From a bacterium (GTDB lineage: Bacteria > Patescibacteriota > Microgenomatia > UBA8517), in contig JAKAJP010000030.1 of NCBI GenBank assembly GCA_021824915.1, positions 1 through 32,290 on the forward strand: a stretch of 32,290 bases of DNA, given 5' to 3'. Position numbers and translations under genes: made by a program. Positions 3,781 to 23,503 of this stretch are shown here, in pieces. Under the pieces are notes generated by a model that saw only the letters and a program-made list of their open reading frames with translations, was not told where the DNA came from and searched no databases. Each line of letters starts with the position of its first letter. The first letter of the stretch is position 1.

Positions 3781-5799
3781 ATGGCTACCACAGATAGTCT
3801 TCCTGAGGTTGGGGATAGAGTGGACATTAAGAACTTGCTCCCTGTTTCTAATCCCGAAAATCGACTTTATGGCACAGCTATGGAAATCTGTGATTATACA
3901 GGGATTAAGCTTTCTGAAATTCCAGGTATTCCTCTAGAGCACAGAGTCAGATCGTCAATGTTGGCTTTAGGAAATCAGGGAATAAGAATGATCGATGGTA
4001 AGCCCGTTTCATTTATTTACATAAGTACATCCGTTAAGGAAGATGATTCGTTTGGCAAGTCTGTATTGGTGGAGGAAACCTTTCATCATATTCAGACCGT
4101 TATGAACAGTGCTTTACTTAAGGAGCGAGCAGAAGTTGAGACAGATAGAAGTTTTCAGTCTGACTATTCACAAAGTAGCGCTCTTTATGAAAATCTCAAA
4201 CAGTCTTCTGGTAAAGCAATGATTGAGTTTGCTTCGAAGACTGGAATCGATTCCAGTCTGCACCCCCAAACTGAAGCCGAAAAAGAGTTGGTGTTAAAGA
4301 GAAGAATAGAAAGACTTTCGCCGGAACAGGCGGCAAGACTTTATACCGCTCTTGACCAGATGGGCGTCGCCAGCGATGGTGAGAATGAACACAGACGATT
4401 TGTTGATAACGCAAAAGAGTATAGAAAAATCGAAAAGCGAATAGACGAGCTCAGAGAGGAGGAAAAAAATTTAGAATCATCGGATGACAGCATCAAATTA
4501 AGGGATATAAGAGAAAGAATACGGAGCTTACGTGAAGGTTTTGACGGCCTTGGAACCTTATCGAGTTTGATATCGTACCAACTTGAGCAGCGCATTGCGA
4601 GAGTGCCTGACGGACCAGAAAGAAGTTCGATTTTGGAAAAGGCCCTTGCAAAATCGTTCGTTGATCTGGATACACTTGGTGCGCAATCAATGTTGTATGA
4701 GGAGAGAATTAAAAACCTCACACCAGATCAAATCCGTAAAGCACTAGAAGATTATTTGGCGAGTAGACCGGATCTTGATTCACTTATTTTCTTGAATAGA
4801 GATTTGACCATAGAAGACAATGAAGAGCATTTGAAGGTTTTAAGGATATTGGAGAGTGGTGATCCGGAGTCTATGGAATATGAAAATTTGAGGCAAAGCT
4901 TCCAGAAAAGAATTGAGAATCAATTGCAGGTAGCCGGTGTTGACGACTTGGCTAAGTTTTACACCGAAAGTTTAATTTATTTAATGCGGGGTGTTGAAAA
5001 GTCCTTGGCCGCGAATGCTCTTGTTGAGGAAAATTTAATATTTTTGTTTGACGATTTACCCATGGACGATGAGACAAGAAAGAGGTTTGTTGGAAATTCT
5101 GAATTTATGCGCCAGCTTAGAGATTTTGTGTTGAAATCCGTCAAAAGCGGAGAACTTTCTCCGTTTGGTTCGGAAGGACTGGATGTTGGGCTATTCTCAT
5201 CCAGTAGAAAGGAAGCTGGGACCGTTCTCAAAAAGTCATTAAAACGACCGACGGATGATATTAATGCCACTGCCTTTTTGGCGGATATGAAATCGGCAAC
5301 TGAATATACAAGATCGAACATTAGTGGTGATCAATTTGATTTTATAGAGGCTGGTTCTGAGAGGAATATTGAAGTTAAATTAAAAGAGACGTTTCCGGAT
5401 AGAAGTATTGCTGATTTGCCTTCTGGAACAGAATTTAGAGATGCCCAACTGGCGGCGTACCAAGAGTCTGTTGAAATTGTGAGAAAATCTAGGAAAGAAA
5501 GTGAGCATAAACACTCGACAGACATCCTTATCGAACCAATAGCAAAAGTTATAAGTCAAAAGTTATCCGGGGGTACACGCAATGATATTGTCTTTCCCGA
5601 AACCATGATGGGTGGCTACACGATAATTCTTAGAACTCAAGAACTTAAAGAGTGGGTCGACAAGCTTTGGACTTATGTTGATAAAGTGCATGAATATAAG
5701 AACAGTGGTGGTGACGCCTCTTTGAGGGAATTTATACATGCCACCAGTTTGGATCAGCAGAGAGCGGTAGTCGAAAAATTTATAAAGGTGATAAAATAG
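3781..5799 (+). CDS. Large hypothetical alpha-helical/coiled-coil protein
   Basis: 672-aa uninterrupted ORF, charged and helical, containing VLVEETFHHIQ (EExxH). No family recognised. Confidence 0.75.
   Translation: MATTDSLPEVGDRVDIKNLLPVSNPENRLYGTAMEICDYTGIKLSEIPGIPLEHRVRSSMLALGNQGIRMIDGKPVSFIYISTSVKEDDSFGKSVLVEETFHHIQTVMNSALLKERAEVETDRSFQSDYSQSSALYENLKQSSGKAMIEFASKTGIDSSLHPQTEAEKELVLKRRIERLSPEQAARLYTALDQMGVASDGENEHRRFVDNAKEYRKIEKRIDELREEEKNLESSDDSIKLRDIRERIRSLREGFDGLGTLSSLISYQLEQRIARVPDGPERSSILEKALAKSFVDLDTLGAQSMLYEERIKNLTPDQIRKALEDYLASRPDLDSLIFLNRDLTIEDNEEHLKVLRILESGDPESMEYENLRQSFQKRIENQLQVAGVDDLAKFYTESLIYLMRGVEKSLAANALVEENLIFLFDDLPMDDETRKRFVGNSEFMRQLRDFVLKSVKSGELSPFGSEGLDVGLFSSSRKEAGTVLKKSLKRPTDDINATAFLADMKSATEYTRSNISGDQFDFIEAGSERNIEVKLKETFPDRSIADLPSGTEFRDAQLAAYQESVEIVRKSRKESEHKHSTDILIEPIAKVISQKLSGGTRNDIVFPETMMGGYTIILRTQELKEWVDKLWTYVDKVHEYKNSGGDASLREFIHATSLDQQRAVVEKFIKVIK
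5792..5797 (+). promoter_or_regulatory. -10 box (TAAAAT) of the original ychF promoter, leaderless type
   Basis: TAAAAT 6 nt upstream of ATG 5804, the same geometry as many other genes in the window. Confidence 0.55.
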
Positions 5800-5803
5800 C
5801 CTC

Positions 5804-5827
5804 ATGAGCCTTTCTGTTGGAATAGTC
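5804..5827 (+). pseudogene. ychF: Displaced original 5' end of ychF (MSLSVGIV) at attL
   Basis: ATG AGC CTT TCT GTT GGA ATA GTC encodes MSLSVGIV, matching LSVGIV of the ychF at 23436. The frame then diverges and stops at 5861-5863. Confidence 0.85.
5815..5826 (+). repeat. attL core (shared GGAAT at 5819-5823)
   Basis: 10/12 identity with 23456-23467. ychF-like coding stops immediately to its right. Confidence 0.75.
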
Positions 5828-5952
5828 AGAGCGGGAATCAACTTTTTCCATTCGAGCTTGTGATACCGTTACCCCCACCAAGAATAGCTAGACTAATAGT
5901 TCAACGGGACAAGTGGGGAAGAATTGTACATTCAGAAGCTCCATTGTTTTGA
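5821..5952 (+). other. Detached 3' end of the recombinase gene (start-less frame NSQSGNQLFPFELVIPLPPPRIARLIVQRDKWGRIVHSEAPLF*)
   Basis: Open frame of 43 codons plus TGA, in frame with the recombinase when GGAAT 23460-23464 is joined to GGAAT 5819-5823. Confidence 0.7.
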
Positions 5953-6098
5953 GTTAATTTAGGGAAAATATTCTTTTTCTATTCCAGACCGCCTCTTGCG
6001 GTGTTAAAATTGCAATATAAAATTATTAAAATATAGACAATGGTTTTATGAGTAAAAATATGAACTGGTTAAATTAATAGCCTTTTTGATCTAAGAAA

Positions 6099-7031
6099 AT
6101 GGAACAAAGGAATTTAGAAGTTGGTGGTAGAGAGTGGGCGTATATAAAAGATAGAGTGCTTGGGAGAGGGAAAATTTACCGTAGTTTAGATGGCACTCAA
6201 TATATGCATACTGGGAGTGTTGCGGAGGTCGGCAATGAAGCGAATTTTATTGAGCAGCTTCATGGTCTTAATTTTCCGGTGCCAAGGATACTTAGTAAGG
6301 GAGAAATCGGAGGAATTAACTACTACATTGAGGAATCAGTTGGGGACATGAGTTTCGGTGAAAAATTTCGCCATGAATACACCTTGCATCAAAAAGTGAC
6401 TGGAGAGACGTTTGAAGGATTTTGCAATATAGCGTGTCAATTCCTGGAAGCGCAATTGAATAATCCAACAGACAGAAGGAGTGAAATAAGGGAAGGGGTA
6501 CATCTATCTAACGTTTTGCAAGAAAATCCAGATCTTAGAGACAAAATTTTCCCATGCATTAGTATGATAGAAACAAATTTGCAACAAATTCCACTCGTAT
6601 TGACCCATGGAGATTTTTCCCCAAGAAATACTTTTACTAAAGGAGTTATTGATTTTGAGCATAGGTTCATTGCTCCCGTCGGTTATGATGTTCTTACGGG
6701 TATAACAATTCAGCGCTTTTGGGATTTTAAGGATAGTGATGGAGAGACTCAGCTTGATTTTGACGTCGAGTCAGGTCAAGTTGCGGATTATTTTAGAAAA
6801 TTAGACAATATCGCTGAGCATTATAAAATAGGGCAATTATCGAGGTTTGCGGATGATTTCGTTGTACTTAAGGCTATTTGGTCTCTTGCTTACGAAAAGC
6901 AATTTGCTAGTCAAACAGGAAACAATTTAAAAAGAAACTTTCGTAAGGCTGTTTTGGTTTATTGTATGGATCAATATATGAATGGCAGACCAGTAGACAC
7001 TAGTAGTTTTAAAAAGTTTGGACAACAATAG
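6099..7031 (+). CDS. Aminoglycoside phosphotransferase / choline kinase-like protein
   Basis: Brenner motif LTHGDFSPRN, metal-binding VIDFE, PVPRIL, and APVGYD after DFE. Confidence 0.82.
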   Translation: MEQRNLEVGGREWAYIKDRVLGRGKIYRSLDGTQYMHTGSVAEVGNEANFIEQLHGLNFPVPRILSKGEIGGINYYIEESVGDMSFGEKFRHEYTLHQKVTGETFEGFCNIACQFLEAQLNNPTDRRSEIREGVHLSNVLQENPDLRDKIFPCISMIETNLQQIPLVLTHGDFSPRNTFTKGVIDFEHRFIAPVGYDVLTGITIQRFWDFKDSDGETQLDFDVESGQVADYFRKLDNIAEHYKIGQLSRFADDFVVLKAIWSLAYEKQFASQTGNNLKRNFRKAVLVYCMDQYMNGRPVDTSSFKKFGQQ

Positions 7032-7057
7032 AGTAGCGTTGATATAGAATTGAAGTT

Positions 7058-8680
7058 ATGACTAAATTACCAAAGACGATTGAGAATTTATTTTATAATC
7101 CGGAGACGGATTCTGTAGACTCATTACTAAAAGATATTAAGGAGACTCATTTGCATATTTTAGAAAACACGGACTTGTCGAAAGGAACTCTTTCCTCAAA
7201 ACCCGAAGATTATGTGTATGTAATAAAGGATTTTAAAATTCCAAATAACGGAATAGGCCAAGGTTCGTTTGACTCAATTATACCCGCGCTTTTTCGTGGT
7301 GTATCCAGGTGGCACTCTCCTCGAACAATGTATAATGTCGCTCCGCCGCCAATATTACCAACAGTTGTTGGTAAAGTTTTCACTTCACTGTATAACCCAA
7401 ATTTAGCCTTAGACACCGCAGCAGGTAAAAGTCTTTTAACCGAACAGGAAGTAATAAAAGCGATTGCAGATTATATCGGTTGGGATCGAGAAAATGCTGG
7501 TGGAATTTTTACCTGGGGTGGAAAGGCAACAATAATGTATGGTATTAAATTAGGACTAAAAAATTGTTCACCAAATTCTTCTACGCAGGGTGCAAAAGAA
7601 GACGTTGTTGTTCTCTCGACGGTAGCTGGTCATCCATCTCATATACAGGATGCTAATTGGCTGGGTATCGGGACGGACAATGTGATTAGGTTGGAAGTTG
7701 ATAGGGATGGTAAAACGGATGTGAATCAAATGGAACAAGTAATTAAAAAAGTGACCAGAGAGGGTAAAAAAATTGCAGCCATTATTGTTTCAGGAGGAAC
7801 AACCAATAGTATGGTGGTGGATCCAATCGAAAAGGTTGTCGAGTTGAGAAATAGACTTGTAAATGAACTTTCCCTGAAGTATATACCTCATATTCATGTT
7901 GACGCCGTGGTTGCCTTCCCATGGATATTTTTTAAAGACTATAATTTTGGATTAAACAATCTTGATATTGAGGCAGAGGCACTGGAAAGAATATTGAAAA
8001 TAATAAAGGATCTGAAATGTATATATCTGGCTGATTCATTTGGCATAGACTTTCATAAAATGGGTTTTTGTCCTTATATATCAAGTGCCTTTCTCGTTAA
8101 GGACAAAACTCTATTAAGTGGAAAGGAAGACCTTCAAAATTGGCCATTTTTATATTCGATGGAGAATTCTAGAGCTGGTGACGGTCCAAACTCCGCTTTT
8201 ATTGCTTTAAGCGCTTTGGGTGTAAAGGGTTTTCAGGTTTTAATTGCACATTTGACTGAGATGGCGGTGCATTTACAGAATGAGATAGAAAAAACAGGAA
8301 ATTTTGAGATAATAAATAAAACAGGACTCGGAACTTCGGTTATGTTTATTCCACGTATTCCTAAAGGTTTAACTTTCCCAAATTTAGAAATAGAATCGAA
8401 GGTCAGAAATTTTTATACAGCAAGTTTTATCGAAGAAATGTCAAAATTAGGGAATCCTTATTATATTGATAAAATACCCGGCAACTCCACTGGATCCAGC
8501 CCTTTTCCGCTAACATCATTAAAAGCTTACATAATGTCGCCATTTTCAAGCAAAGAAAATAATCTTTCTTTTGTGGAATTTATTGTTGAATTAAAGCGAA
8601 AAATAGATATGAAATTCGATTTTCATAATACAAATATTAAGTCTTCGGATGTTGAATTTTTCCATCCCCTAAAAGGATAA
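7058..8680 (+). CDS. Group II PLP-dependent decarboxylase
   Basis: GIFTWGG, SGGTT, HIHVDA and ADSFGIDFHK(MGFCPY) with the PLP lysine. Confidence 0.88.
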   Translation: MTKLPKTIENLFYNPETDSVDSLLKDIKETHLHILENTDLSKGTLSSKPEDYVYVIKDFKIPNNGIGQGSFDSIIPALFRGVSRWHSPRTMYNVAPPPILPTVVGKVFTSLYNPNLALDTAAGKSLLTEQEVIKAIADYIGWDRENAGGIFTWGGKATIMYGIKLGLKNCSPNSSTQGAKEDVVVLSTVAGHPSHIQDANWLGIGTDNVIRLEVDRDGKTDVNQMEQVIKKVTREGKKIAAIIVSGGTTNSMVVDPIEKVVELRNRLVNELSLKYIPHIHVDAVVAFPWIFFKDYNFGLNNLDIEAEALERILKIIKDLKCIYLADSFGIDFHKMGFCPYISSAFLVKDKTLLSGKEDLQNWPFLYSMENSRAGDGPNSAFIALSALGVKGFQVLIAHLTEMAVHLQNEIEKTGNFEIINKTGLGTSVMFIPRIPKGLTFPNLEIESKVRNFYTASFIEEMSKLGNPYYIDKIPGNSTGSSPFPLTSLKAYIMSPFSSKENNLSFVEFIVELKRKIDMKFDFHNTNIKSSDVEFFHPLKG

Positions 8681-8727
8681 GGTTTGTTTTGCAAGCCTAT
8701 TGTGATAAAATCTCAGCCATAGAACCC

Positions 8728-9963
8728 ATGATAAAACAAAAAACAAATAGCCAGCCTACACAAGTCTTAAGCAGTTTAGAAGAAGCGAGGGTTAATGTAC
8801 CTTTAGAGAACCCCAATTTGCCAATGCCGCTCAAGTTTGAAGTATCAAGGCCTGAAATTATAAAAAAGTCACTAGCGATTAAAGATCTTACTTTACCAAC
8901 TGAAAGTGGGCAGGAAAGAAGCGTTGTTGGAAAGGTTTTTGATCAGGTTGTAGAAAAATTAAAAGAGCATAATTTTTCTGATATTCATATAGTGAGAGGA
9001 AATCCCATTGTTGAAGTAAGAGATAATTTTGATAAACTCCTCTTTTCGCCAGGAAATCCAGGAAGGTCATCAACTTACACTAGGTACACCGATGAGAATC
9101 ATGTATTAAGAACCCACACGTCAGCACTAATACCATCAACTTTTGAGAAATTGGATAAAAAAGATTTAGACCGCTCGACTTTTGTACTCCCAGGCTTAGT
9201 TTATAGAAGAGATGTGATTGATCCTAAACACTTGGACGTGTTCCACCAAATTGATGTATGGACACTTCAGAAAAACAAAAAATACGGAAAGACAAATAGA
9301 AAAGATTTGTTAGAGCTTGTTAAAGCCGTGTTCGAAGCAGCCTGTCCGGGTGCTGAAATGAAAATTAATGAGGTAAAGCACCCCTATACTTTAGATGGTA
9401 TAGAGGTTTATGCGAAAATTGATAACAAAGAGATAGAAGTCCTCGAAGCTGGGTTGGCGCACCCCACAGTGTTAAGTAATTCTGGCATTAATCCTGAAGA
9501 ATACTCGGGTTTGGCTTTGGGTATGGGTGTTGAACGCCTAATCATGGCACGAAAAGACCTACCGGATATCAGGTTAATTCGATCGACAGACCCCCGTGTA
9601 ATTAAACAAATGACGAATATGGAAAAGTATAGGAGTGTCTCTAATCAGCAAGCCATGTCGAGAGATATGTCCTATTGTGTTGAGAAAGACGAAACAGAGG
9701 AAGATATCTGCGAAGCTATTAGGGTTGCGTTTGGGGAGAATAGCGATTTGTTGGAAGAGGTTAAGATTTTAGAGAGAACTCCATACGAAAAATTGACTCC
9801 AATTGCTAGAAAAAGACTCGGTGCATCAAAAGATCAAGTTAACGTTTTGGTAAGAATTGTTTTAAGACATCCCGACAGAAGCTTGACCAAAAGGGAGGCT
9901 GCGGATTTGTACTCCTCTGTTTATCCAAAATTACACCAAGGGTCAACTTTGGGATATGAATAA
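8728..9963 (+). CDS. Single-chain PheRS-like class II ligase with C-terminal FDX-ACB-like domain (PheS-related 'SrmL'-like / mitochondrial PheRS-like architecture)
   Basis: DNFDKL, VLRTHTSA, motif 2 GLVYRRD...HLDVFHQ, motif 3 GLALGMGVERL, PDIRL, then SRDMS...LRHPDRSLT. First ATG is 8728; the ORF track opens at 8689. Confidence 0.85.
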   Translation: MIKQKTNSQPTQVLSSLEEARVNVPLENPNLPMPLKFEVSRPEIIKKSLAIKDLTLPTESGQERSVVGKVFDQVVEKLKEHNFSDIHIVRGNPIVEVRDNFDKLLFSPGNPGRSSTYTRYTDENHVLRTHTSALIPSTFEKLDKKDLDRSTFVLPGLVYRRDVIDPKHLDVFHQIDVWTLQKNKKYGKTNRKDLLELVKAVFEAACPGAEMKINEVKHPYTLDGIEVYAKIDNKEIEVLEAGLAHPTVLSNSGINPEEYSGLALGMGVERLIMARKDLPDIRLIRSTDPRVIKQMTNMEKYRSVSNQQAMSRDMSYCVEKDETEEDICEAIRVAFGENSDLLEEVKILERTPYEKLTPIARKRLGASKDQVNVLVRIVLRHPDRSLTKREAADLYSSVYPKLHQGSTLGYE

Positions 9964-10615
9964 TAATCGGCGTAAGCGTCTAATCACCTTAAGAGAAGCG
10001 TATGAAAAGGAACCTTACAGTGTTAAGCTTAGTGGCCTCAACCTTAGGATAGAAAAAGGTGTTTTTCCTCCTGATGTATCATTTGCTACTCTAAAACTTG
10101 GGAAAATTCTGGGTAACTATCGTCCCGAATCAGCAATAGACATAGGAAGCGGGTCTGGATATCTTGCATTTGTGCTGAAACGAAATGGTGTTCAAAGAGT
10201 ATTTGCAAGTGACATAAATCCGGCCGCAATTAATTGCATAAAAGAAAATGTACGGTTAAATCCCGGCTGTAATCTTAACGGAATTTATTTGAGTGACCTT
10301 TTTAGTAATCTTAAAGAGAACTTAAAGTTTGATCTTATTATCTTCAATCATTTTTACCGTCCCGAAGGAACGGGTATTTTTGGTCCAGTAAACGATGCGG
10401 GAAAAGAGATAATTGAACGGTTTTTGACACAATCAAAACAAAGATTAACTCAAAACGGTGTCATTATTATGAACTTTGTTGAGATGTCTGATCCTGAGAA
10501 TAGCCCGGCAGCAATTGCGAAGCAGATGGGTTATAAGGTGAAAGTATTATTCCAAGAGAGTAACTATCAAAATATGGGTAATTTCTTTGTTTACGAATTT
10601 AAACTGCCAAGTTAA
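9956..10615 (+). CDS. Class I SAM-dependent methyltransferase (HemK/PrmC-like fold)
   Basis: GVFPP, IDIGSGSG, SDINPAA, SDLF, KFDLIIFN. Overlaps the ligase stop by 8 nt. Confidence 0.85.
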   Translation: MNNNRRKRLITLREAYEKEPYSVKLSGLNLRIEKGVFPPDVSFATLKLGKILGNYRPESAIDIGSGSGYLAFVLKRNGVQRVFASDINPAAINCIKENVRLNPGCNLNGIYLSDLFSNLKENLKFDLIIFNHFYRPEGTGIFGPVNDAGKEIIERFLTQSKQRLTQNGVIIMNFVEMSDPENSPAAIAKQMGYKVKVLFQESNYQNMGNFFVYEFKLPS

Positions 10616-10616
10616 T

Positions 10617-15960: not shown

Positions 15961-16233
15961 ATGACTATGACTCAAAATCTAGATATCAATGACTATTACT
16001 CGACTTCAGATCTCGCGTTAGCAACCGCGATTTCTCTTTATTATCCACTTGAGGTGGTTGACCGTAGCAATCCCCATAAGGCTCAATTTCTTTTCAAAAG
16101 AGATGACAACCTGGATAAATTTATAGAATCGTATTGGAGAGGAGATCTTAAAGTAAGTCCTTCTTCTTATTTTAATCAGCTAAAAATCATAAAAGCCCGG
16201 CTTTACGAAATGGAAAGGAGCCGCAATGGCTAA
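15961..16233 (+). CDS. Small element protein, DUF5659-like
   Basis: YSTSDLALATAI...FLFKR...YWRGDLKVSP-x-x-YFNQLK-x-x-KARLY pattern, recognised from memory. Confidence 0.7.
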   Translation: MTMTQNLDINDYYSTSDLALATAISLYYPLEVVDRSNPHKAQFLFKRDDNLDKFIESYWRGDLKVSPSSYFNQLKIIKARLYEMERSRNG

Positions 16234-16414
16234 AATTAAAGTTACTTTTGAACAGGTGGAATTGAGTAAGGAGGAGTTAAAAAATCGCATTGATTCCATT
16301 TTTGATATTTTGTTTGAGGAAATTGTGAAGTCGTCAGTACGGCCAAATAAGAATATTTCTATAGATCGCGTGGATGGCGGGAGGGAGGTGAATGAACAAA
16401 TATGCCTAAGTTAA
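16226..16414 (+). CDS. Small hypothetical protein
   Basis: 62-aa ORF with an AGGAG SD. Overlaps both neighbours. Confidence 0.55.
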   Translation: MAKIKVTFEQVELSKEELKNRIDSIFDILFEEIVKSSVRPNKNISIDRVDGGREVNEQICLS

Positions 16415-16815
16415 TTTTCAAAAAAAGAGTAGTTCCGGATGCGGGGAAAATAATGACCCATTTGGTCTCAGTTGGCGAAGTGGAGAACCAGTTTTACAAC
16501 CCAAAAGAGCAAAGTGAGGATAAAAAGACGCAGTTGGAATGGATTTTTGAGTACACGGACAAGCCGGGAATGCAAATACGGCTTTGGTCTACCAAAAGTC
16601 TATCAACTTACAAGGGTAAGAAATCCAAAGCTCTAACTATTACTGAATCCTTGCTGGATAAAGAACTGACTGATGAAGAAAAAGAAAGTTTTGGAGATAC
16701 CGATCAGTTGGTTGGACGAAAGTGTTATCTAACTGTTAAGCACGAGAAGAAAGATGACGGTCAGATTTACGCAAAAGTAGTTGATTTTGAAAGCGAATCA
16801 GGAATTCCCTTTTAA
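16402..16815 (+). CDS. Putative phage-type single-stranded DNA-binding protein (OB-fold-like, acidic IPF tail)
   Basis: Beta-rich, LVGRKCYLTVKH...YAKVVDF, ends ESESGIPF. Strong GGAGGTGA SD; sits directly upstream of the primase. Confidence 0.6.
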   Translation: MPKLIFKKRVVPDAGKIMTHLVSVGEVENQFYNPKEQSEDKKTQLEWIFEYTDKPGMQIRLWSTKSLSTYKGKKSKALTITESLLDKELTDEEKESFGDTDQLVGRKCYLTVKHEKKDDGQIYAKVVDFESESGIPF

Positions 16816-16822
16816 CTTTCAT

Positions 16823-16851
16823 TCCGGGCGTAACTTCAAATTGCGCCTGGA
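16823..16851 (+). promoter_or_regulatory. Intergenic RNA hairpin upstream of the primase gene
   Basis: TCCGGGCGTAA-(7 nt loop)-TTGCGCCTGGA: 11-bp stem with two G-U pairs and no U-tract. Confidence 0.5.
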
Positions 16852-16865
16852 GACGAGAGCTGAAT

Positions 16866-19202
16866 ATGGCTAATCAAGATACTACTACAAATAAGATTTT
16901 GGAGCAAGCTTTGTTCCTATCTGAAAAGATGGGGTGGAGCATAATTCCTGTGGGAGCCGATAAGAAACCATTGATTGAGTGGAAAATCTATCAAAACCAA
17001 AAAGCAACTCCCGAGCAGGTTAAAGAATGGTTTTCAGAGCCAGGTGTTAATTTGGGGGTTGTTACCGGCAAGATATCAAATTTGGTAGTCGTAGACATTG
17101 ATATTAGAAGTGGTGGTACAGATGAGGATTTTAAGGGAGTTCAGACGGTTAAATCTAAGACTGGGGGTGGTGGCTGGCATTACTATTTTAAATTCGAGGA
17201 AGGTTTACAGAATCAGGCGGGGATAAGACCGGGAATTGATATTCGAGCCGAAGGCGGCTATGTGGTAGCACCTCCATCAACCCATAAGTCGGGTAACTTA
17301 TACGAGTGGTTAAGAGCGCCCGTGGACGCGGAAGTTGTAGAACTACCAAATTTCGTTAAAGAGTGGATAGGTAATGTCAAAAGTAAAGATGGTTCTAAAG
17401 AAAGTAAATGGAATAATAAATTACTCGGTGGTGTTTCTGAAGGTAATAGAAACGATGCTGCCGCCTCCGTAATTGGTAAGTGGCTTAAACGTTACCCGGA
17501 GGAGGAATGGGATGAAGTTTGGTCAATGGCGCTTCTTTGGAATAAAGATAATAAACCCCCACTACCTGAAGAGGAGTTGCGGACCGTTTTTGAATCAATA
17601 GTCAAAACTGAAAAAGCAAATGAAGGAGAGGATGATGACAGTCCGGGGAGGCGGACTGTAGCGGATAAAATAGTTGATTTGGTTTTGGAGCTAAAAGCTG
17701 AACTATATTTGGATCAGACAGGAGAACCTCATATTACTTTTCCAGAAAAGCCCGTTGTTGGCTTTCCCATAAAAAGCTCCGTATTTAGAAGGTGGATTAG
17801 TGGTAAGTTTTGGGAACAATACGAAAAGGGATTTTCTGGAGAAAGCTTCCAACAGGCGGTAAGTAGTATTGAAGGAAAATCATTCCATGAGGGAGTAACA
17901 AAAAGTCTTTATAACCGTGTTGCCAGAGTTGATGGTGTAATTTACTACGACTTAGGAGATGATGCGCGGGTTATAAAGATAACAAAAGAAGGTTGGGAAG
18001 TAACTACTAAATGTCCGGAGAAGTTTAGAAGATTTAGTCATCAACTGCCTCAGATTGAGCCTAAAAAGGGCGGAGACGTGTTGAAAGTTTTGGAATATCT
18101 TAACCTCAAAACAGAAACAGACAAACTGCTTTTCATAACATATCTTCTGACAGTCTTTATTCCTGATATACCAAGAGTGGTTTTAATTAACATTGGGGAT
18201 CAGGGCGCGGCCAAAAGTACTGCCTTAAGAATTATCAGAAGTTTGGTGGACCCAAGCATTTCAGAACTCTTAAGTCCTCCGTCGGATATTAACGAACTAG
18301 CTCAGGCATCAAATCATCATTATTGTCTGTATCTGGATAATCTTTCATACCTCCGTGACGAGCTATCTGACGCTTTGTGTAGGCTTGCTACAGGCATAGG
18401 GTTTACGAAACGGAAACTGTTTACCAATGATGAGGACGTGTTGTTTACCCAGAAGGCTGCGGTTGGGATTACAGGAATCAACCTGGTAGCCCAACGAGCG
18501 GATTTACTAGATAGATGCTTGATATTGAGTTTTGAACGAATTCCCGAGGATATGCGAATAGATGAGGAAGACTTTTGGAAGAATTTCAACAACGATAAAC
18601 CACTAATGTTAGGTTCTATTTTTGACAAGTTATCACTGCTTTTGGGGATGGCACAGGAATTTAAGTTGGCAAGAAAGCCCCGAATGGCGGATTATGCCAA
18701 ATATGCTGCGATTGGTGCCTTAACGCTAGGTAAGAGTCCTGAAGAGTTTCTAACTGCCTTTGGTGAGAATATAGAAAGGCAGAACCAGGCGGCAATTGAT
18801 TCATCCCCAACAGCTCAATCTATTTTGAAATTCATGAGTGACAAAGATAGTTGGAGCGGTCCGAGTACGGAACTACATAAGCTTCTTAAAAGCATAGTTG
18901 AGGCAGCTAACTTGCAAATAGGGGGTTCTGAAGGCTTTCCTAAATCTTCCAATTGGCTTTGGAAGCGAGTAATGCAAATACGTCCCAACTTATTGTCTTT
19001 GGGTATAAGTGCCTCTAAATCCGAAACAATAGAAGGTTCAGAAATAAATCTCAAAAAAGGTGTCCAGGAAGAGAAAAATACTGCCATTACTGCCAATACT
19101 GCCACTGAAGTGAAAGACATGGCAGCAGTGGCAGTAGAACAGGGGACTTTGGAGGGAGTCTCAACCTTTAGTTCAATTCCCGGATTGGAGGATTACAAAT
19201 GA
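16866..19202 (+). CDS. Bifunctional primase-polymerase with PriCT-like domain and C-terminal P-loop helicase-like domain
   Basis: NLGVVTG, VVDID, KTGGGGWHYYF, DIRAEGGYVVAPPS; EGNRND and WN...PPLPEEEL (PriCT-1); Walker A GDQGAAKST, LYLDN, DLLDRC. Confidence 0.9.
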   Translation: MANQDTTTNKILEQALFLSEKMGWSIIPVGADKKPLIEWKIYQNQKATPEQVKEWFSEPGVNLGVVTGKISNLVVVDIDIRSGGTDEDFKGVQTVKSKTGGGGWHYYFKFEEGLQNQAGIRPGIDIRAEGGYVVAPPSTHKSGNLYEWLRAPVDAEVVELPNFVKEWIGNVKSKDGSKESKWNNKLLGGVSEGNRNDAAASVIGKWLKRYPEEEWDEVWSMALLWNKDNKPPLPEEELRTVFESIVKTEKANEGEDDDSPGRRTVADKIVDLVLELKAELYLDQTGEPHITFPEKPVVGFPIKSSVFRRWISGKFWEQYEKGFSGESFQQAVSSIEGKSFHEGVTKSLYNRVARVDGVIYYDLGDDARVIKITKEGWEVTTKCPEKFRRFSHQLPQIEPKKGGDVLKVLEYLNLKTETDKLLFITYLLTVFIPDIPRVVLINIGDQGAAKSTALRIIRSLVDPSISELLSPPSDINELAQASNHHYCLYLDNLSYLRDELSDALCRLATGIGFTKRKLFTNDEDVLFTQKAAVGITGINLVAQRADLLDRCLILSFERIPEDMRIDEEDFWKNFNNDKPLMLGSIFDKLSLLLGMAQEFKLARKPRMADYAKYAAIGALTLGKSPEEFLTAFGENIERQNQAAIDSSPTAQSILKFMSDKDSWSGPSTELHKLLKSIVEAANLQIGGSEGFPKSSNWLWKRVMQIRPNLLSLGISASKSETIEGSEINLKKGVQEEKNTAITANTATEVKDMAAVAVEQGTLEGVSTFSSIPGLEDYK
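19080..19136. repeat. Iteron-like array: three direct ACTGCCA-nn 9-mers plus two inverted copies (candidate origin)
   Basis: ACTGCCATT ACTGCCAAT ACTGCCACT ... ATGGCAGC AGTGGCAGT. TACTGCCACTG (19097-19107) is the perfect inverse of 19126-19136. Confidence 0.6.
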
Positions 19203-19507
19203 TTACAGAAACAATAAAAGAAACACTTGAGAAATATATTCGGCTTTGCTCTTGGTTCCTGATTAAAGACGGAGATAAAGACGTTGCTTCGAATCAATTT
19301 GAGACAGTTTTAAAGGAAATTGGGAATTTGGAAGACAAGCTGATTGGAGAAGGTGTCTCCGGGAAAACTATTGAGACGATTGTTGAGATGACAAGAAAAA
19401 ACACTTTAGAGAAACCAATAAGTGAGTTAAGCGATTCTCAATTACTCAAGGTTTGTAAATTGATATTTGGTAAGGAAGTTGAATTTGAGGGGGGTGCCAC
19501 CCCATAA
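19199..19507 (+). CDS. Hypothetical protein
   Basis: 102-aa ORF coupled to the primase stop (ATGA overlap). Confidence 0.65.
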   Translation: MITETIKETLEKYIRLCSWFLIKDGDKDVASNQFETVLKEIGNLEDKLIGEGVSGKTIETIVEMTRKNTLEKPISELSDSQLLKVCKLIFGKEVEFEGGATP

Positions 19508-19518
19508 GCGTAACTTAT

Positions 19519-19908
19519 ATGGAAGAAAAACCACAATGCAGTTTTATAAAAGAAAATGGGGAGAGATGTAATGCTATACCTATGAAAGATAGTGGCTATT
19601 GCTTTAGCCACAATCCTGATGTGGAAGTTGAGCGCCATATGGCTTTGGTTAAGGGTGGTTTGGCCAGTAAGAAAGTAGAGTTAAACCTTGAACCCTTGAG
19701 CATAAAAGACCCTAAAGAAGTGGCCACCTTGCTTGAAAGCACAATTAACGGTGTAAGAAGTGGTGAGATTCCACCCAATATTGCAAACACGATTGGTTAC
19801 CTCGCAGGGCACGTTCTGAAGGCCCTGGAATCATCGAACTTAGACCAGAGAGTGGAAATGGTAGAGAGCATTCTTTTGGAACGTAAGCGAAGCATAAAGA
19901 AGCACTAA
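19519..19908 (+). CDS. Hypothetical protein with N-terminal C-x9-C-x10-C-x2-H putative zinc finger
   Basis: QCSFIKENGERCNAIPMKDSGYCFSH followed by KGG and a helical C-terminus. Confidence 0.72.
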   Translation: MEEKPQCSFIKENGERCNAIPMKDSGYCFSHNPDVEVERHMALVKGGLASKKVELNLEPLSIKDPKEVATLLESTINGVRSGEIPPNIANTIGYLAGHVLKALESSNLDQRVEMVESILLERKRSIKKH

Positions 19909-19909
19909 A

Positions 19910-21652
19910 ATGACGAAAAACTTAGACTTAACCAGAATATCGGAAAATCTAACCCCTAAAGAGCGGGTCCTCCTCATGGTTCACGACGATGTTGAAGAAC
20001 AAAAGACCGGGAAAGGAGTATTAACTGATGCCGATAAACACGCCTTAACAGAAGGTTGGACGCCTAAAAACAATTATGAAGTAGATGAGTATAACAAGTT
20101 TAATAAAGGCTGGAGAATGATGGGCTTTGCTGAAATTGACGCACAAACAACGTTTTTAAATGCACAATCAACTTATTTTCAGGAGAAACAGATGAGCAAT
20201 TTCCTTTTGTTATATCCACTCTTTAGAGATGCAAAGAATTGGGTGGATAGCCTTGATAATATTAAGCCGGTGAGTATCGACCAGGCACTGGAGATAGTTA
20301 AAAGACAGAGAGAAGTGAAATTAAAAGGTGGTTTGGAATTTGATCGTGCGGTTTATCAACTGGCATTTGAGAATTTAAGTAAGGATTTACAAGAGGATTT
20401 AGAAACCCTTTATCCAGAGATTAAATATGAGACAGATTATTTAGACGAGGAAGAAATAATTGCGGGTCTTTTTGGCGGTAAAGAAAAACTAGCAATTGAG
20501 GATAAGAACAAGCTGGCGGATCTGATAATCAAAAAATCTTACAATCAATACGCCAAAGAATACCAATTTTTTCATTATTTTGCCTCAATTCCTATAAAAG
20601 AAGTTGTTAAAAGGTGGATGAAAAAGAGGGGGATACAGCCGGAGACTTTACCAGCCGATGAAGAGTTTCAAAACGCTTTTACTAAGATTTCGGAGGAGAA
20701 AAACTTAAATTCTGAAGAGGCTATTATAGATTGGACGGCCGAAAATATAGCTGAAGCAATCAGTGATTATGCTAGAAAACATCAAACAACAGTGGAAGTT
20801 GAATTAAAAGAGGTATGTTTGGAATGGATAGACGAAGGCTTGTTAGATAATTACCAACCTTTATTTAAGTCTACAGATACCAAGACTTGCAACGGCACAA
20901 CCAAGTTACCCTGCAATCTAATTTTTAAGGAATGGATTGAGGCCAAAACAAAAGCCAAAAATATTCTGGACAATCTTATTTCAGAGGGGAAATTAAAGCG
21001 GGAAGGCGACACTTTAACCGGGGGAAGTCTTTACAACTTCAAAGGAGATTACCAATTTATTAAGGAACATAACAAATATGTAGATTTATATGATGCCAAC
21101 TTGGGTATTGTATACGCAGATGATGATCCGGAGCACAAAAAAGCACATTTGGATAGGGAGTTTCTGATAACCGAGATTGGAGAAGACGGTAAACCCAGCG
21201 GTATCAATTTTTCACAAATAGCTATGGCGAGAATAAAAGGATTCTTTGAGATGCTGGGATTTGTAAAGGAAAGTGAAATAAATGGGGAGAGGATTATAGA
21301 GTTTAAGGATGAAAATTTTAATGAATTAATGAGAAATACAATCACATCTCTTAAGGAGTTATATTCTGCGCTTTTAACTTTCCGGGAACTTTTTAGAAAG
21401 CTGTCCAAGGTGTATGAAGTGGACCTAACTTTTAAGATTGATGAATGGGTGAAACAAACTGAAAAGTTTATAGATAGCCACAATGAGGTTCTTAAACTAG
21501 CTACCAAAAAGGATTTTATGGAAATGCGAAGCAAAAATACGGTAAGGTTTAAAGATGATTGGTTTATTGATAAATCGAAAATAAGTTCAGACGAAGAAAG
21601 AACAATGAGATACTTTAAAGAGTTTGAAGGGATATTAAAAGAGGACTTTTAG
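19910..21652 (+). CDS. Large hypothetical alpha-helical protein
   Basis: 580-aa ORF starting 1 nt after the upstream stop. No family recognised. Confidence 0.75.
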   Translation: MTKNLDLTRISENLTPKERVLLMVHDDVEEQKTGKGVLTDADKHALTEGWTPKNNYEVDEYNKFNKGWRMMGFAEIDAQTTFLNAQSTYFQEKQMSNFLLLYPLFRDAKNWVDSLDNIKPVSIDQALEIVKRQREVKLKGGLEFDRAVYQLAFENLSKDLQEDLETLYPEIKYETDYLDEEEIIAGLFGGKEKLAIEDKNKLADLIIKKSYNQYAKEYQFFHYFASIPIKEVVKRWMKKRGIQPETLPADEEFQNAFTKISEEKNLNSEEAIIDWTAENIAEAISDYARKHQTTVEVELKEVCLEWIDEGLLDNYQPLFKSTDTKTCNGTTKLPCNLIFKEWIEAKTKAKNILDNLISEGKLKREGDTLTGGSLYNFKGDYQFIKEHNKYVDLYDANLGIVYADDDPEHKKAHLDREFLITEIGEDGKPSGINFSQIAMARIKGFFEMLGFVKESEINGERIIEFKDENFNELMRNTITSLKELYSALLTFRELFRKLSKVYEVDLTFKIDEWVKQTEKFIDSHNEVLKLATKKDFMEMRSKNTVRFKDDWFIDKSKISSDEERTMRYFKEFEGILKEDF

Positions 21653-21656
21653 AATA

Positions 21657-21685
21657 TTGCAAAGTATTACAAAGTAATCTAATAT
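21657..21685 (+). promoter_or_regulatory. Sigma70 promoter of the xis-recombinase unit, overlapped by a tandem 10-bp repeat
   Basis: TTGCAA-17 nt-TAATAT, 6 nt before ATG 21692. ATTGCAAAGT ATTACAAAGT at 21656-21675. Confidence 0.65.
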
Positions 21686-21691
21686 GAATCT

Positions 21692-21883
21692 ATGGAAGAA
21701 TTTTACACAACAAGACAAATTGGAAAGATGCTTCATGTTAAAGCCATTACCATAAGGCGTTGGATATCTAAAGGCGATTTACCCGCACTTTTCTTTGAGA
21801 AGGAATATAGAGTAATAAAATCGGATTTTGATAAATTTATTCAAAGTAAAAAAGTTCAAATAAAGAAAGGAAAGGGTAAATAA
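21692..21883 (+). CDS. Excisionase-like HTH DNA-binding protein
   Basis: FYTTRQIGKMLHV-x-x-x-TIRRWI-x-x-GDLPA...YRV-x-x-SDFDKFI, a MerR-like Xis fold. Immediately upstream of the recombinase. Confidence 0.85.
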   Translation: MEEFYTTRQIGKMLHVKAITIRRWISKGDLPALFFEKEYRVIKSDFDKFIQSKKVQIKKGKGK

Positions 21884-21886
21884 AAA

Positions 21887-23503
21887 ATGTTGGTGGCTAC
21901 TTACAAAAGGGTTTCAACAATGCGTCAGGAAAATGAGCAGACCATTGAGAATCAGACAATGGCTATTAAAGAGTTTGCTGATAAGAATGGCCACACAATT
22001 ATCAAGGAATATCAAGATGATGGTTGGAGCGGGACAATTCTTGCCCGCCCAGGACTCGATGGGCTTCGGATTGATGCTAAAAAGAAAGTTTGGGAGGCTG
22101 TAATCATCTATGATCCGGATAGAGTTGCCCGTAAGTATTCCTATCAGGCTTTAGTAATTGATGAGCTTGAAGAAGCAGGAATAAAAGTTCTTTTTGTTAC
22201 AACCCCTCCGGCCCTAACAGAAGAGGATCGTTTACTTTATGGAGTGAAAGGTTTGTTTGCCGAATATGAAAGAGCCAGAATTGCTGACCGCTTCAGGCTT
22301 GGCAAATTAAGAAACGCACGCGAAGGAAAAGTGGTAACTAGCGCTGCCCCATATGGCTATAACTACATTCCCAAACAAGGGAGTGTTCACGGACATTTTG
22401 AAATAAATAAACAGGAAACAATTGTGGTCAGGATGATCTTTAAGTGGGTTGGTGAGGAAGGTATCACAATGATGACTGTAATTAAAAGGCTTCATGAAAT
22501 GGGAATTCCCCCGAGAAAAGGTAAGAAAGAAACATGGAGCACTAGTACCCTTACATCGCTTCTGAGAAATGAGACTTACATTGGGTTGGCACACTATAAC
22601 AGTTCCTATGCTGTTGTTCCTCAAAACCCGCTAAAACACGATAAATACAAAAGGGTGAAAAAGTCGAGTAGAAAAATGAGACCGCGTGAAGAGTGGATAT
22701 TTATTCCAGTACAGTCAGTTATTGATAAAGAATTATTTGAAAAGACTCAAAAACAATTAAAACTTAATTATGAGCTTTGCCAGAGGAACAAAAAGAACGA
22801 CTATCTTCTGGCACAAATGATGTATTGCGTTTGTGGTAGAAGACGAACCGGTGAGGGACCACAAAAGGGTAAGCATCTATACTATAGATGTACAGACAGA
22901 ATTTATCATTTTCCGCTTCCCCGTAAGTGTAAAGAGAGAGGAGTTAATGCCAGGATTGCGGATGATTTGGTTTGGAGCAGGGTTAAAAAGTTTATGACCT
23001 CACCCGATCTAATTAAGGAACAGGCTAAAAGGTGGGTAGGAAAAAAGAAGGGTGAACTTACAAACTCCCATGAATCAATAGATGACCTTAAGTTTGAGTT
23101 GGAGAAAATTAAAAAAGAGGAACAAAGATATATAAAGGCTTATGGAGCGGAAATGCTTACGATTGAACAGCTTAACGAGACGATGGGGGATTTGAGGTTG
23201 AGAAGGTCTATTTTAGAAAAGAGAATCAAGGATATGGACGATAGTTCGAATTCTATGGAAATTAAACTTCCAAATGATGAACAAATAGAAGAGTTTTGCA
23301 AGCAGGCATTAGATAAATTGGAAGGCTTGAGTTTTGAGGGGAAACGGGGGATACTAACGAAGGTATTAACCAAAGTCATAGGAACCCAAAAAGAATTAAG
23401 GGTTTTAGGTTATTTACCAATAGAAAACAACCAAAATGTCGAGTTCAAAACTGAGTGTCGGAATTGTAGGGCTACCGAATGTGGGGAAGTCTACCCTGTT
23501 TAA
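21887..23503 (+). CDS. Large serine recombinase (integrase), integrated-state form
   Basis: YKRVST (catalytic Ser), DDGWSG, RPGLD, DRVAR, PYGY, zinc ribbon CVCG...YYRC...C, coiled coil. Overlaps ychF by 68 nt. Confidence 0.95.
   Translation: MLVATYKRVSTMRQENEQTIENQTMAIKEFADKNGHTIIKEYQDDGWSGTILARPGLDGLRIDAKKKVWEAVIIYDPDRVARKYSYQALVIDELEEAGIKVLFVTTPPALTEEDRLLYGVKGLFAEYERARIADRFRLGKLRNAREGKVVTSAAPYGYNYIPKQGSVHGHFEINKQETIVVRMIFKWVGEEGITMMTVIKRLHEMGIPPRKGKKETWSTSTLTSLLRNETYIGLAHYNSSYAVVPQNPLKHDKYKRVKKSSRKMRPREEWIFIPVQSVIDKELFEKTQKQLKLNYELCQRNKKNDYLLAQMMYCVCGRRRTGEGPQKGKHLYYRCTDRIYHFPLPRKCKERGVNARIADDLVWSRVKKFMTSPDLIKEQAKRWVGKKKGELTNSHESIDDLKFELEKIKKEEQRYIKAYGAEMLTIEQLNETMGDLRLRRSILEKRIKDMDDSSNSMEIKLPNDEQIEEFCKQALDKLEGLSFEGKRGILTKVLTKVIGTQKELRVLGYLPIENNQNVEFKTECRNCRATECGEVYPV

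What the first reader, a model, noticed from the sequence alone, without database searches (positions are those of the whole stretch)
5792..23503. Integration into the first codons of ychF with an element-encoded replacement N-terminus
Seen: the original start ATG AGC CTT TCT GTT GGA ATA GTC (MSLSVGIV) with its -10 box sits at 5792-5827. The functional gene starts 17.6 kb away with MSSSKLSVGIV encoded by different synonymous codons (CTG AGT GTC GGA ATT GTA). The same bases are dual-coding with the recombinase. Inference: the element preserves the beta-strand before the YchF P-loop by protein-level mimicry rather than a long DNA repeat, so direct-repeat-based island finders would miss it.
Basis: partly seen in the sequence, partly recalled or inferred. 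Interest (0 to 1): 0.8.

Follow-up and report, generated by a model that had tools for sequence, protein, structure and literature searches.

The report
Mobile element rebuilds ychF's start
A 17.6-kb mobile element has inserted itself into the first codons of the conserved ATPase gene ychF, carries its own replacement start for that gene, and in doing so splits off the end of its own recombinase gene.

Summary
A 17,641-bp element (5819/5824 to 23459/23464) lies in codons 6-7 of ychF. The host's start, MSLSVGIV, and its extended -10 box are stranded at 5789-5827. The working gene starts at 23436 with element-encoded MSSSKLSV.

A contig from an independent soil metagenome joins 5818 directly to 23460, with 5 shared bases (GGAAT). 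This is the predicted empty site.

The agent is a large serine recombinase (21887-23503) that overlaps ychF by 68 nt. The arrangement is family-wide:
- 7 of 9 related loci show the same overlap.
- 109 of the 120 closest homologues end in a tail that is ychF P-loop DNA read in another frame.

New here: attP lies inside the recombinase reading frame. Integration removes a conserved 42-codon C-terminal module, left at 5824-5952, and replaces it with 12 codons read from ychF. This parallels Mx8 IntP among tyrosine integrases.

Not shown:
- excision or circle formation
- any function for the tail swap
- how ychF is expressed after integration

I rate it a new variant of a known kind, interest about 0.6.

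The parts
3781..5799 (+). Host gene of 672 aa, function unknown; the left flank of the insertion
   Evidence: ORF. No Pfam or NCBIfam family. Homologues found in 2 of 40 relatives, not next to ychF there. Its 3' end is contiguous with ychF in the X5 contig.
5789..5797 (+). Stranded extended -10-like box TGATAAAAT of the original ychF, ending 6 nt before the ATG
   Evidence: Sequence. The same motif at the same distance occurs in 13 of 29 relatives. Not called by the consensus scan. Activity not tested.
5804..5823 (+). Stranded original ychF start (ATG plus codons 2-6 and part of 7): the host arm of attL. In this frame the ORF now runs on to a stop at 5861-5863 (19 aa).
   Evidence: Identical in the empty-site contig as far as differences are listed.
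5819..5823 (.). Left copy of the 5-base identical core GGAAT, within which or next to which strand exchange occurred
   Evidence: Joint 5818 to 23460 with 5 letters fitting both sides.
5824..5952 (+). Stranded 3' end of the recombinase gene: 42 codons plus TGA, in frame with 21887-23464 across the inferred attP junction
   Evidence: The tail profile finds 222 cluster representatives.
5824..23464 (.). The integrated element, 17,641 bp (equivalently 5819-23459)
   Evidence: Joint. G+C is 0.34-0.42 inside against 0.41-0.45 outside. X1 and X3 contigs run from both flanks into the element.
6099..12068 (.). Cargo genes: APH-family kinase, PLP decarboxylase, PheS-related ligase SrmL (8689-9963), HemK-like methyltransferase, and a GFO/IDH/MocA oxidoreductase on the minus strand
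   Evidence: Pfam. NCBIfam NF051887 at 389.5 bits against a cut-off of 300.
12135..13571 (-). DNA methyltransferase fused to an Mrr-like nuclease domain
   Evidence: PF01555 at 2.9e-51 and PF04471 at 8.1e-07; phrog_67.
13661..13882 (+). HTH_3 (Cro/CI-type) regulator, the first gene of the co-directional run that ends in ychF
   Evidence: PF01381 at 3.2e-17; repressor-type PHROGs.
16866..19202 (+). Prim-Pol / PriCT-1 replication protein (778 aa)
   Evidence: PF09250 at 7.2e-29 and PF08708 at 5.6e-10; primase PHROGs.
21692..21883 (+). HTH_17 protein of 63 aa just upstream of the recombinase; candidate excisionase or directionality factor
   Evidence: PF12728 at 2.9e-10; excisionase PHROGs. Conserved upstream of the recombinase in L035, L041 and L042.
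21887..23503 (+). Large serine recombinase, integrated form (538 aa). The last 12 codons (23465-23500) and the stop are host ychF DNA read in another frame.
   Evidence: Resolvase, Recombinase and Zn_ribbon_recom domains. Tail analysis.
23436..23464 (+). Element arm of attR with three roles: recombinase codons, recombinase binding arm (inferred), and the new ychF start (ATG plus 8 codons and part of the next)
   Evidence: [YNHD]V, which supplies the ATG, is at the fixed position in 92 of 120 homologues.
23436..24416 (+). ychF, the only copy found in the genome, with an element-encoded N-terminus
   Evidence: TIGR00092 at 353.8 bits. One match in G000.

Best explanation
A 17,641-bp integrative element entered ychF by site-specific recombination. 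The enzyme was the element's own large serine recombinase (LSR). Strand exchange took place within or beside GGAAT, in the Gly-Ile codons just before the P-loop.

The element's attachment site (attP) lies inside the LSR reading frame. The arm to its left is used three ways:
- It encodes the linker of the LSR.
- It is presumably one half of the LSR's binding site.
- In another frame it carries an ATG and eight codons (MSSSKLSV) that replace the host's MSLSV.

After integration ychF is therefore whole again, now starting inside the end of the LSR gene.

The exchange leaves two things at the left junction: the host's promoter-like box with its original start (5789-5823), and the LSR's last 42 codons (5824-5952). 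The integrated LSR instead ends in 12 codons read from the ychF P-loop DNA. Its stop comes from the Phe-Asn codons.

**Shown:**
- the insertion and its exact borders
- the empty site
- the dual coding
- the in-frame conserved tail
- recurrence across the family

**Inferred:**
- that the LSR did the integration
- that the 568-aa form is the one made from the free circle
- that the tail swap changes activity
- that ychF is now transcribed from within the element
For: **Insertion and borders**
- The empty-site contig joins 5818 to 23460 with a 5-base overlap. X5 shows zero depth in 18 of the 26 bins between 5928 and 23191; the small depths in the others (highest over the methyltransferase, 12568-13895) probably come from other organisms.
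- The restored reading MSLSVGIV+GLPNVGKST is the commonest N-terminus among relatives: exact in 7 of 29.

**Recombinase**
- The LSR has all three Pfam domains.
- It is the only copy in the genome, and ychF is single-copy.

**Recurrence of the LSR-ychF overlap**
- 3 of 3 relatives in GTDB genomes.
- 4 of 6 in metagenome contigs.
- Among 40 relatives, 5 have an LSR hit at E<=1e-20. In 2 of these the LSR match overlaps the ychF match (G016, G019), and in 1 (G006) an LSR fragment lies 37 nt from it.

**Tails of the 120 best homologues (52-100% identity)**
- 71 have the full alternative-frame ychF tail.
- 38 stop at the two positions where that frame can give TAA.
- Controls: 0 of 120 in protein bodies, 0 of 120 reversed, 0 of 2400 shuffled for the full pattern, 4 of 2400 for the cut pattern.

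**Stranded recombinase tail**
- Read across the inferred junction, the window's LSR becomes 568 aa. This equals the natural L046 LSR (568 aa) and is close to P0037 (567 aa).
- The same holds for G043.
- The four tails share 10 invariant residues, and every one of these is encoded by more than one codon.
- The tail profile finds 222 cluster representatives at E<=0.001. Of the best 150, 7 are contiguous with LSR core sequence.

**Structure model**
An AlphaFold model of P0037 puts a low-confidence linker at 517-530. Three strands follow at pLDDT 74-84.
Against: - No excision product or circle junction was seen. X1 and X3 show no such joint, but contigs cannot show rare forms.
- The empty site may simply never have been occupied.
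- L046 carries the long LSR form next to LeuRS and Alba genes. It may therefore be chromosomal, not a free circle.
- In G041 no left junction was found in 40 kb upstream.
- The symmetry analysis that points to GG as the crossover dinucleotide works for the window (12 and 13 of 25). It does not work for G043 (6 and 8 of 25).
- The window's new ychF start has no Shine-Dalgarno sequence and no called promoter, so its expression is unexplained.
- 143 of the 150 best tail hits are short stand-alone ORFs. A separate small protein is therefore not excluded.
Confidence: 0.85

Rival explanations
1. The island is an old, fixed insertion. The recombinase is a relic or domesticated gene, the element no longer moves, and the X5 contig shows only the ancestral state.
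For: No excision or circle joint in X1 or X3. No conjugation or capsid genes were found. Decayed copies exist: L036/G043 has only a 152-aa LSR remnant, and G006 has a fragment with a stop.
Against: - In the window the LSR is full length with all domains.
- The 42-codon tail 17.6 kb away is open and keeps all 10 invariant residues. That would not be maintained without passage through the joined form.
- The flanks of the empty-site strain differ from the window by about 0-3%, so the insertion difference is recent.
Confidence: 0.15
2. The likeness between the element's arm and the host's arm comes from the recombinase needing similar half-sites. Selection to encode a working YchF N-terminus is not involved, so the rebuilt start is a by-product.
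For: The same protein binds both attP and attB half-sites in this family (established for large serine integrases; recalled). The two arms share 12 of 18 bases in register.
Against: - Across 8 loci the arm varies at synonymous and conservative positions while keeping M-x(3-5)-L-x-V/I-G. Examples are CTG AGT GTC, CTA GCA GTC, CTA TCA GTC and CTG AAG GTA.
- The ATG is kept through [YNHD]V in 92 of 120 homologues.
- ychF was found in 41 of 41 genomes searched and is single-copy here, so an insertion that killed it would probably be costly.
- Both constraints probably act together.
Confidence: 0.2
3. The conserved peptide at 5824-5949 is an independent small gene at the element's left end and is not the C-terminus of the recombinase.
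For: Of the best 150 profile hits, 121 are 100 aa or shorter and only 7 match LSR core sequence. Many begin with M.
Against: - The window has no ATG, GTG or TTG in that frame between the TAG at 5797 and the tail's first 12 codons (sequence).
- The frame is continuous with the LSR across the junction in the window and in G043.
- Natural proteins carry core and tail in one chain: L046, P0037 and 7 fragments.
- The deduced length matches exactly, 568 against 568 aa.
- Short ORF calls are what gene finders would produce at a stranded gene end.
Confidence: 0.1
4. The 5818-to-23460 joint in X5 is an assembly artefact or a deletion by chance microhomology, not a true unoccupied site.
For: It rests on one contig of 933 nt from one run. 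The ychF side differs from the window by 57 of 584 bases against 6 of 349 on the left, so the contig could mix strains.
Against: - The contig's depth is 9.48.
- The joint falls exactly on the 5-base core predicted from the sequence alone.
- It restores the N-terminus that relatives have.
- X5 shows zero depth in 18 of the 26 bins between 5928 and 23191, with only small depths in the rest.
Confidence: 0.05

Closest known systems
Large serine recombinase (serine integrase) elements that insert within genes, such as phiC31, Bxb1, A118, SPbeta, SCCmec Ccr and XisF
   Same: The three-domain recombinase is the same. CcrB, CcrC and XisF are the nearest NCBIfam models, all far below their cut-offs. 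Attachment sites are short with only a few identical bases and no long flanking repeat. The target lies inside a coding region; PMC6109161 states in a passage I read that serine integrases commonly use such attB sites.
   Different: Here the target gene is rebuilt instead of being interrupted. Also, attP lies inside the recombinase's own reading frame. My searches found no report of that for a serine integrase. The closest phage-borne relative is the Wolbachia WO recombinase at 31.5% identity.
SXT/R391 integrative conjugative elements in prfC
   Same: Insertion is in the 5' extremity of a conserved translation-related GTPase-superfamily gene, and tandem arrays form at that site (PMC5812530, passages read). 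That the element supplies a new 5' coding end and promoter for prfC is recalled from Hochhut and Waldor 1999, which I did not read.
   Different: SXT uses a tyrosine recombinase with a longer shared core, is about 100 kb and is conjugative. The element here uses a serine recombinase, is 17.6 kb, and has no transfer genes detected.
Mx8 IntP/IntX and SSV-type integrases whose gene spans attP
   Same: Integration changes or splits the integrase gene because attP lies within it. PMC4383910 says in a passage I read that integrases of Mx8 and SSV extend across attP. [quoted passage not shown]
   Different: Those are tyrosine recombinases integrating at tRNA genes. Here it is a serine recombinase, and the replacement tail comes from a protein-coding target read out of frame. 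The Mx8 papers themselves were not held.
Pipolins with LSRs integrated at ychF (Actinomycetota)
   Same: The same target gene is named for LSR-bearing elements (PMC11551731, passages read).
   Different: No piPolB was found among the 17 element ORFs scanned. The host here is a small-genome Patescibacteria-like bacterium. The passages I read give no detail on position within ychF or on start-codon replacement; the figures and supplements were not seen.
Integration-dependent immunity of mycobacteriophage BPs
   Same: attP lies inside a gene, so integration changes that protein's C-terminus and hence its behaviour (PMC4557955; only the abstract start in the search listing was seen).
   Different: There the gene is the repressor and the integrase is of the tyrosine type. 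Here it is the recombinase itself.

Membership tests
Large serine recombinase / serine integrase | N-terminal resolvase-type catalytic domain | tested here: met
   PF00239 at E 9.8e-28, residues 4-148.
Large serine recombinase / serine integrase | Recombinase domain followed by a zinc-ribbon domain with a coiled-coil insertion | tested here: met
   PF07508 at 1.6e-17 and PF13408 at 1.5e-05. The model of homologue P0037 has long helices at 373-420 and 426-455 after the ribbon.
Large serine recombinase / serine integrase | Short attachment sites with a minimal identical core and no long flanking direct repeats | tested here: met
   A 5-base identical core. No long boundary repeat.
Large serine recombinase / serine integrase | Catalysis of attP x attB recombination, with excision dependent on a directionality factor | not testable with these tools
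   Only a candidate factor exists: the HTH_17 gene at 21692-21883, conserved upstream of the LSR in 3 loci.
SXT/R391-type integration (works-like comparison) | Tyrosine recombinase Int | tested here: not met
   No tyrosine-integrase family among the 20 ORFs scanned; the recombinase is of the serine type.
SXT/R391-type integration (works-like comparison) | Insertion in the 5' end of a conserved gene that stays intact through element-supplied sequence | tested here: met
Integrase gene spanning attP (Mx8/SSV type) | The integrase reading frame continues across attP, so integration alters or splits it | tested here: met
   In-frame conserved tail at the opposite end in the window and in G043. The length matches natural long forms.
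Integrase gene spanning attP (Mx8/SSV type) | Tyrosine recombinase fold | tested here: not met
   Serine recombinase domains only.
Pipolin | Primer-independent family-B DNA polymerase (piPolB) | tested here: not met
   No DNA polymerase B family at E<=0.01 in the 17 element ORFs. A Prim-Pol protein is present instead.
Prophage | Capsid, portal, terminase or tail genes | tested here: not met
   No structural PHROG in the 17 element ORFs. Four ORFs of 100-610 aa remain without any family.
YchF (redox-regulated ATPase) | Equivalog-level match including the P-loop and the C-terminal YchF domain | tested here: met
   TIGR00092 at 353.8 bits against a cut-off of 279.2. PF06071 at 7e-32.

The most novel reading that the evidence does not exclude
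The stranded 42-residue C-terminal module is a built-in state switch for a serine integrase. The 568-aa enzyme made from the free circle is the integration-competent form. The act of integration physically removes the module. The resulting 538-aa enzyme, ending in a ychF-derived peptide, has a different activity or direction: silent, or ready to excise with the HTH_17 partner. The element would thus record its own integration state in the covalent structure of its recombinase. Serine integrases are otherwise thought to rely only on a separate directionality factor. Under this reading the same roughly 30 bp would also serve as binding arm, enzyme linker and start of an almost universal host gene.
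Probability: 0.3. Interest if true: 0.8.

Novelty: new variant of a known kind. Interest (0 to 1): 0.6.

Why it matters
- **Mechanism.** It shows in exact molecular detail how a mobile element can occupy a nearly universal single-copy gene without destroying it, in bacteria with very small genomes where mobile elements are poorly described.
- **Island finding.** Direct-repeat or tRNA-based island finders will not detect this class. The ychF-frame tail of the recombinase and the stranded tail ORF give two simple sequence signatures for finding both ends.
- **Recombinase biology.** Serine integrases are widely used genome-engineering tools. This family has a highly conserved natural target and a C-terminal module that is removed and restored by the reaction itself. 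That is a testable new handle on directionality.
- **Scale.** The family is large: 1,298 homologues at E<=1e-40, a capped count.

Tried and rejected
- **Viral contigs.** 586 pattern matches, none a relative. The patterns came from the coiled-coil part only, so this says little.
- **Word search with the P0037 tail.** It found only itself. The exhaustive profile search replaced it.
- **Symmetry scan for the crossover dinucleotide.** It peaks at GG for the window (12 and 13 of 25) but not for G043, so the exact dinucleotide within GGAATNGT is left open.
- **Consensus promoter and terminator scans.** No site at the old or new ychF start, and counts were not above shuffles.
- **Pfam on tail-bearing proteins and PDB sequence search with the tail profile.** Nothing beyond the LSR domains; only weak chance-level PDB matches (E 0.016 and above).
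- **Circle or excision joints in X1 and X3.** None listed. These are contigs, which drop rare forms, so this counts neither way.
- **Left junction in G041.** Not found in 40 kb upstream with my patterns.
- **Synteny test.** The 672-aa gene has homologues in only 2 of 40 relatives and is not next to ychF there, so representative genomes could not supply the empty site. The read-laying step did.
- **Not available.** The Mx8 primary papers were not held.
- **Prophage, rejected.** No structural genes.
- **Pipolin, rejected.** No piPolB.

Full report
**1. The observation**

- On the + strand, ATG AGC CTT TCT GTT GGA ATA GTC lies at 5804-5827. It begins four bases after the TAG stop of a 672-aa gene. 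TGATAAAAT lies at 5789-5797.
- At 23436 an ORF of 326 aa starts with MSSSKLSVGIV followed by GLPNVGKST. It is YchF at equivalog level: TIGR00092, 353.8 bits against a cut-off of 279.2.
- The ORF 21887-23503 overlaps it by 68 nt and has the Resolvase, Recombinase and Zn_ribbon_recom domains of a large serine recombinase (LSR).
- MSLSVGIV occurs once in the six-frame translation, where composition predicts 5e-6. LSVGIV occurs only at these two places.
- In register the two junctions share CT...TGT.GGAAT.GT, with GGAAT at 5819-5823 and 23460-23464. There is no long boundary repeat.
- G+C is lower between the junctions: 0.34-0.42 against 0.41-0.45.

**2. The empty site**

Representative genomes could not supply it. 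The 672-aa gene has homologues in only 2 of 40 relatives, and there it is not next to ychF.

I laid public runs on 4600-24500. Contigs of X1 and X3, from the likely source study, run from both flanks into the element.

Run X5 comes from a soil metagenome of a different study. It holds a 933-nt contig at depth 9.48 that:
- lies on 5470-5818 with 6 differences;
- continues directly at 23460-24043;
- skips 17,641 bases, with 5 letters fitting either side.

X5 shows zero depth in 18 of the 26 bins between 5928 and 23191. The small depths elsewhere are highest over the DNA methyltransferase (12568-13895) and probably come from other organisms.

The restored N-terminus is also the one relatives have. 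Of 29 relatives, 7 begin exactly MSLSVGIV, most others differ by one residue, and none begins MSSSKL.

**3. The arrangement is family-wide**

- All 3 LSR relatives found in GTDB genomes overlap the start of ychF, by 68, 44 and 68 nt. One of them is a 152-aa remnant.
- Of 6 metagenome loci, 4 show the overlap and 2 do not.
- Among 40 relatives, 5 have an LSR hit at E<=1e-20. In 2 the LSR match overlaps the ychF match (G016, G019), and in 1 (G006) an LSR fragment lies 37 nt from it.
- The element-supplied starts are MSSSKLSV, MSSSKLAV, MSSTKLSV, MSSSSLSV, MSSSVLKV, MSYSALSI and MNLSV. The codons differ among them.

The integrated LSR ends in host DNA, so its tail is a context marker. In the LSR frame, the conserved ychF codons for G-I-V-G-L-P-N-V-G-K give a predictable peptide. 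They also give predictable TAA positions.

Of the 120 best homologues (52-100% identity, out of 1,298 at E<=1e-40):
- 71 carry the full pattern;
- 38 stop exactly at the two predicted early stops, 24 after six residues and 14 after nine;
- 92 have [YNHD]V at the fixed position, which supplies the ATG of ychF.

The controls gave 0 of 120 in protein bodies, 0 of 120 reversed and 0 of 2400 shuffled tails for the full pattern. The cut pattern gave 4 of 2400.

Source names on these proteins are Microgenomates, Levybacteria, Woesebacteria, Gottesmanbacteria, Jorgensenbacteria, Paceibacterota and Patescibacteria, plus two labelled Omnitrophota.

**4. attP lies inside the recombinase gene**

Read across the deduced junction (23464 on to 5824), the LSR frame stays open for 42 more codons, to a TGA at 5950-5952. 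This gives 568 aa in place of 538.

- The same holds in G043, where the tail lies 11.7 kb from the LSR remnant.
- L046 carries a natural LSR of 568 aa with the same tail and no ychF downstream.
- P0037 is a natural 567-aa form with all three domains and the tail.
- The four DNA-derived tails share 10 invariant residues in a P..R..R.I..RD..GRIV pattern. Each of the 10 is encoded by more than one codon, so selection acts on the protein.
- A profile of the tails finds 222 cluster representatives at E<=0.001 among 1.84 billion proteins. The best 150 have a median length of 67.5 aa, and 121 are 100 aa or shorter. Seven also match LSR core sequence. This is what stranded gene ends would look like to a gene finder.
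- The tail has no Pfam family and no solved relative by sequence.

An AlphaFold model of P0037 was built on 79 sequences, with mean pLDDT 86.6. It shows:
- a low-confidence linker at 517-530, which is the part encoded by attP;
- then three strands at 534-542, 551-555 and 561-565, with pLDDT 74-84.

So integration exchanges a small folded module for 12 residues read out of frame from ychF. What the module does is not known.

**5. Consequences for expression (inferred)**

- In 13 of 29 relatives an extended -10 box, TGNTA[AT]AAT, ends 6-9 nt before the ychF ATG. A 14th relative uses GTG. This suggests a leaderless or near-leaderless mRNA.
- The window's stranded box fits this at 6 nt. After integration it points into the element, whose first five genes (6099-10615) are on the same strand.
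- The new ychF start has no such box and no Shine-Dalgarno sequence in the window. L035, L036 and L042 have GGAGG there.
- All genes from 13661 to ychF are co-directional, so read-through is possible. None of this was tested.

**6. The element's gene content**

- A Cro/CI-type regulator.
- A Prim-Pol/PriCT replication protein.
- An HTH_17 excisionase-like gene next to the LSR, conserved in three other loci.
- A DNA methyltransferase fused to an Mrr-like domain.
- A cargo block that includes the PheS-related ligase SrmL.

No capsid, terminase or transfer genes were found, and no piPolB. It is best called an integrative, possibly mobilisable, element.

**7. What is known**

- ychF has been named as an integration site for LSR-bearing pipolins in Actinomycetota (PMC11551731, passages read).
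- SXT/R391 sits in the 5' extremity of prfC and forms tandem arrays there (PMC5812530, passages read).
- Integrases of Mx8 and SSV extend across attP (PMC4383910, passage read). The Mx8 paper titles speak of a C-terminal change of IntP and of regulation by reversible covalent modification (reference list of PMC6070905). Those papers were not held.
- Four searches for a serine integrase whose gene spans attP found none. The library lacks most subscription journals, and I saw no supplements, so this is not proof of absence.

**8. Open points**

- No excision or circle was seen.
- The exact crossover dinucleotide within GGAATNGT is open.
- G043 has two left-type junctions and one right junction.
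- The first 584 nt of ychF differ by about 10% between the window and the X5 contig. The left flank differs by 1.7%, and the contig laid on 24018-24500 (which overlaps the end of that tract) by 0.8%. This could be a recombination tract or a strain mix in the contig.
- L046's long LSR sits beside LeuRS and Alba genes, so it may not be a free circle.

**9. Verdict**

The mechanism belongs to known kinds: site-specific integration with target-gene restoration, and an integrase gene that spans attP. It combines them in a way I did not find described for serine integrases, and it does so across a large family in Patescibacteria-like genomes.

Noticed in passing
L040 (G029:C16) 5192-5500 and 8293-9297: A relative has the first ~99 codons of ychF duplicated: a 102-aa ORF ending just after GNKFL, 2.8 kb upstream of the full gene. 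Between them lie a Fic/DOC protein (394 aa) and two ORFs with no family. No recombinase was seen. This looks like a second, different kind of insertion into ychF with a much longer replaced 5' part.
   Followed up: partly
L039 (G043:C2), minus strand, about 12229 and about 8440: There are two left-type junctions, each with an extended -10 box, an ATG, a few ychF-like codons and a recombinase tail, but only one right junction. The stretch between them holds a histidine kinase, a response regulator and a RibD_C gene. The layout suggests successive insertions or accretion at ychF. It remains unexplained.
   Followed up: partly
window 23460-24043 compared with 5470-5818 and 24018-24500: The X5 empty-site contig differs from the window by 57 of 584 bases in the 5' part of ychF. 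On the left flank it differs by only 6 of 349, and a neighbouring contig differs by 4 of 483 further right. X1 also holds a minor contig (depth 2.6) with the same variants at 23825-23937. Possible causes are a recombination tract next to the element or a mix of strains.
   Followed up: no
window 6099-12068: The cargo block holds an APH-family kinase, a PLP decarboxylase, the PheS-related 'mystery ligase' SrmL (NF051887, 389.5 bits), a HemK-like methyltransferase and an oxidoreductase. The genome has a canonical pheS elsewhere (G000:C26).
   Followed up: partly
L036 1787-2767: An ORF of 326 aa that looks like a reverse transcriptase by eye (not scanned) lies just upstream of the truncated 152-aa recombinase remnant. 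It may have disrupted the recombinase gene.
   Followed up: no
L046 164-4836 and 8529-10295: The long-form recombinase, with intact tail and no ychF downstream, shares an 11-kb contig with LeuRS, an Alba-domain protein, a MazF-like toxin and a type I specificity-subunit fragment. It is unclear whether this is an episome with cargo or a chromosomal site.
   Followed up: partly
window 5804-5863: The stranded ychF start now heads a 19-codon ORF that runs into element DNA. If the old promoter box is still active, a short peptide and transcripts into the cargo genes would result.
   Followed up: no
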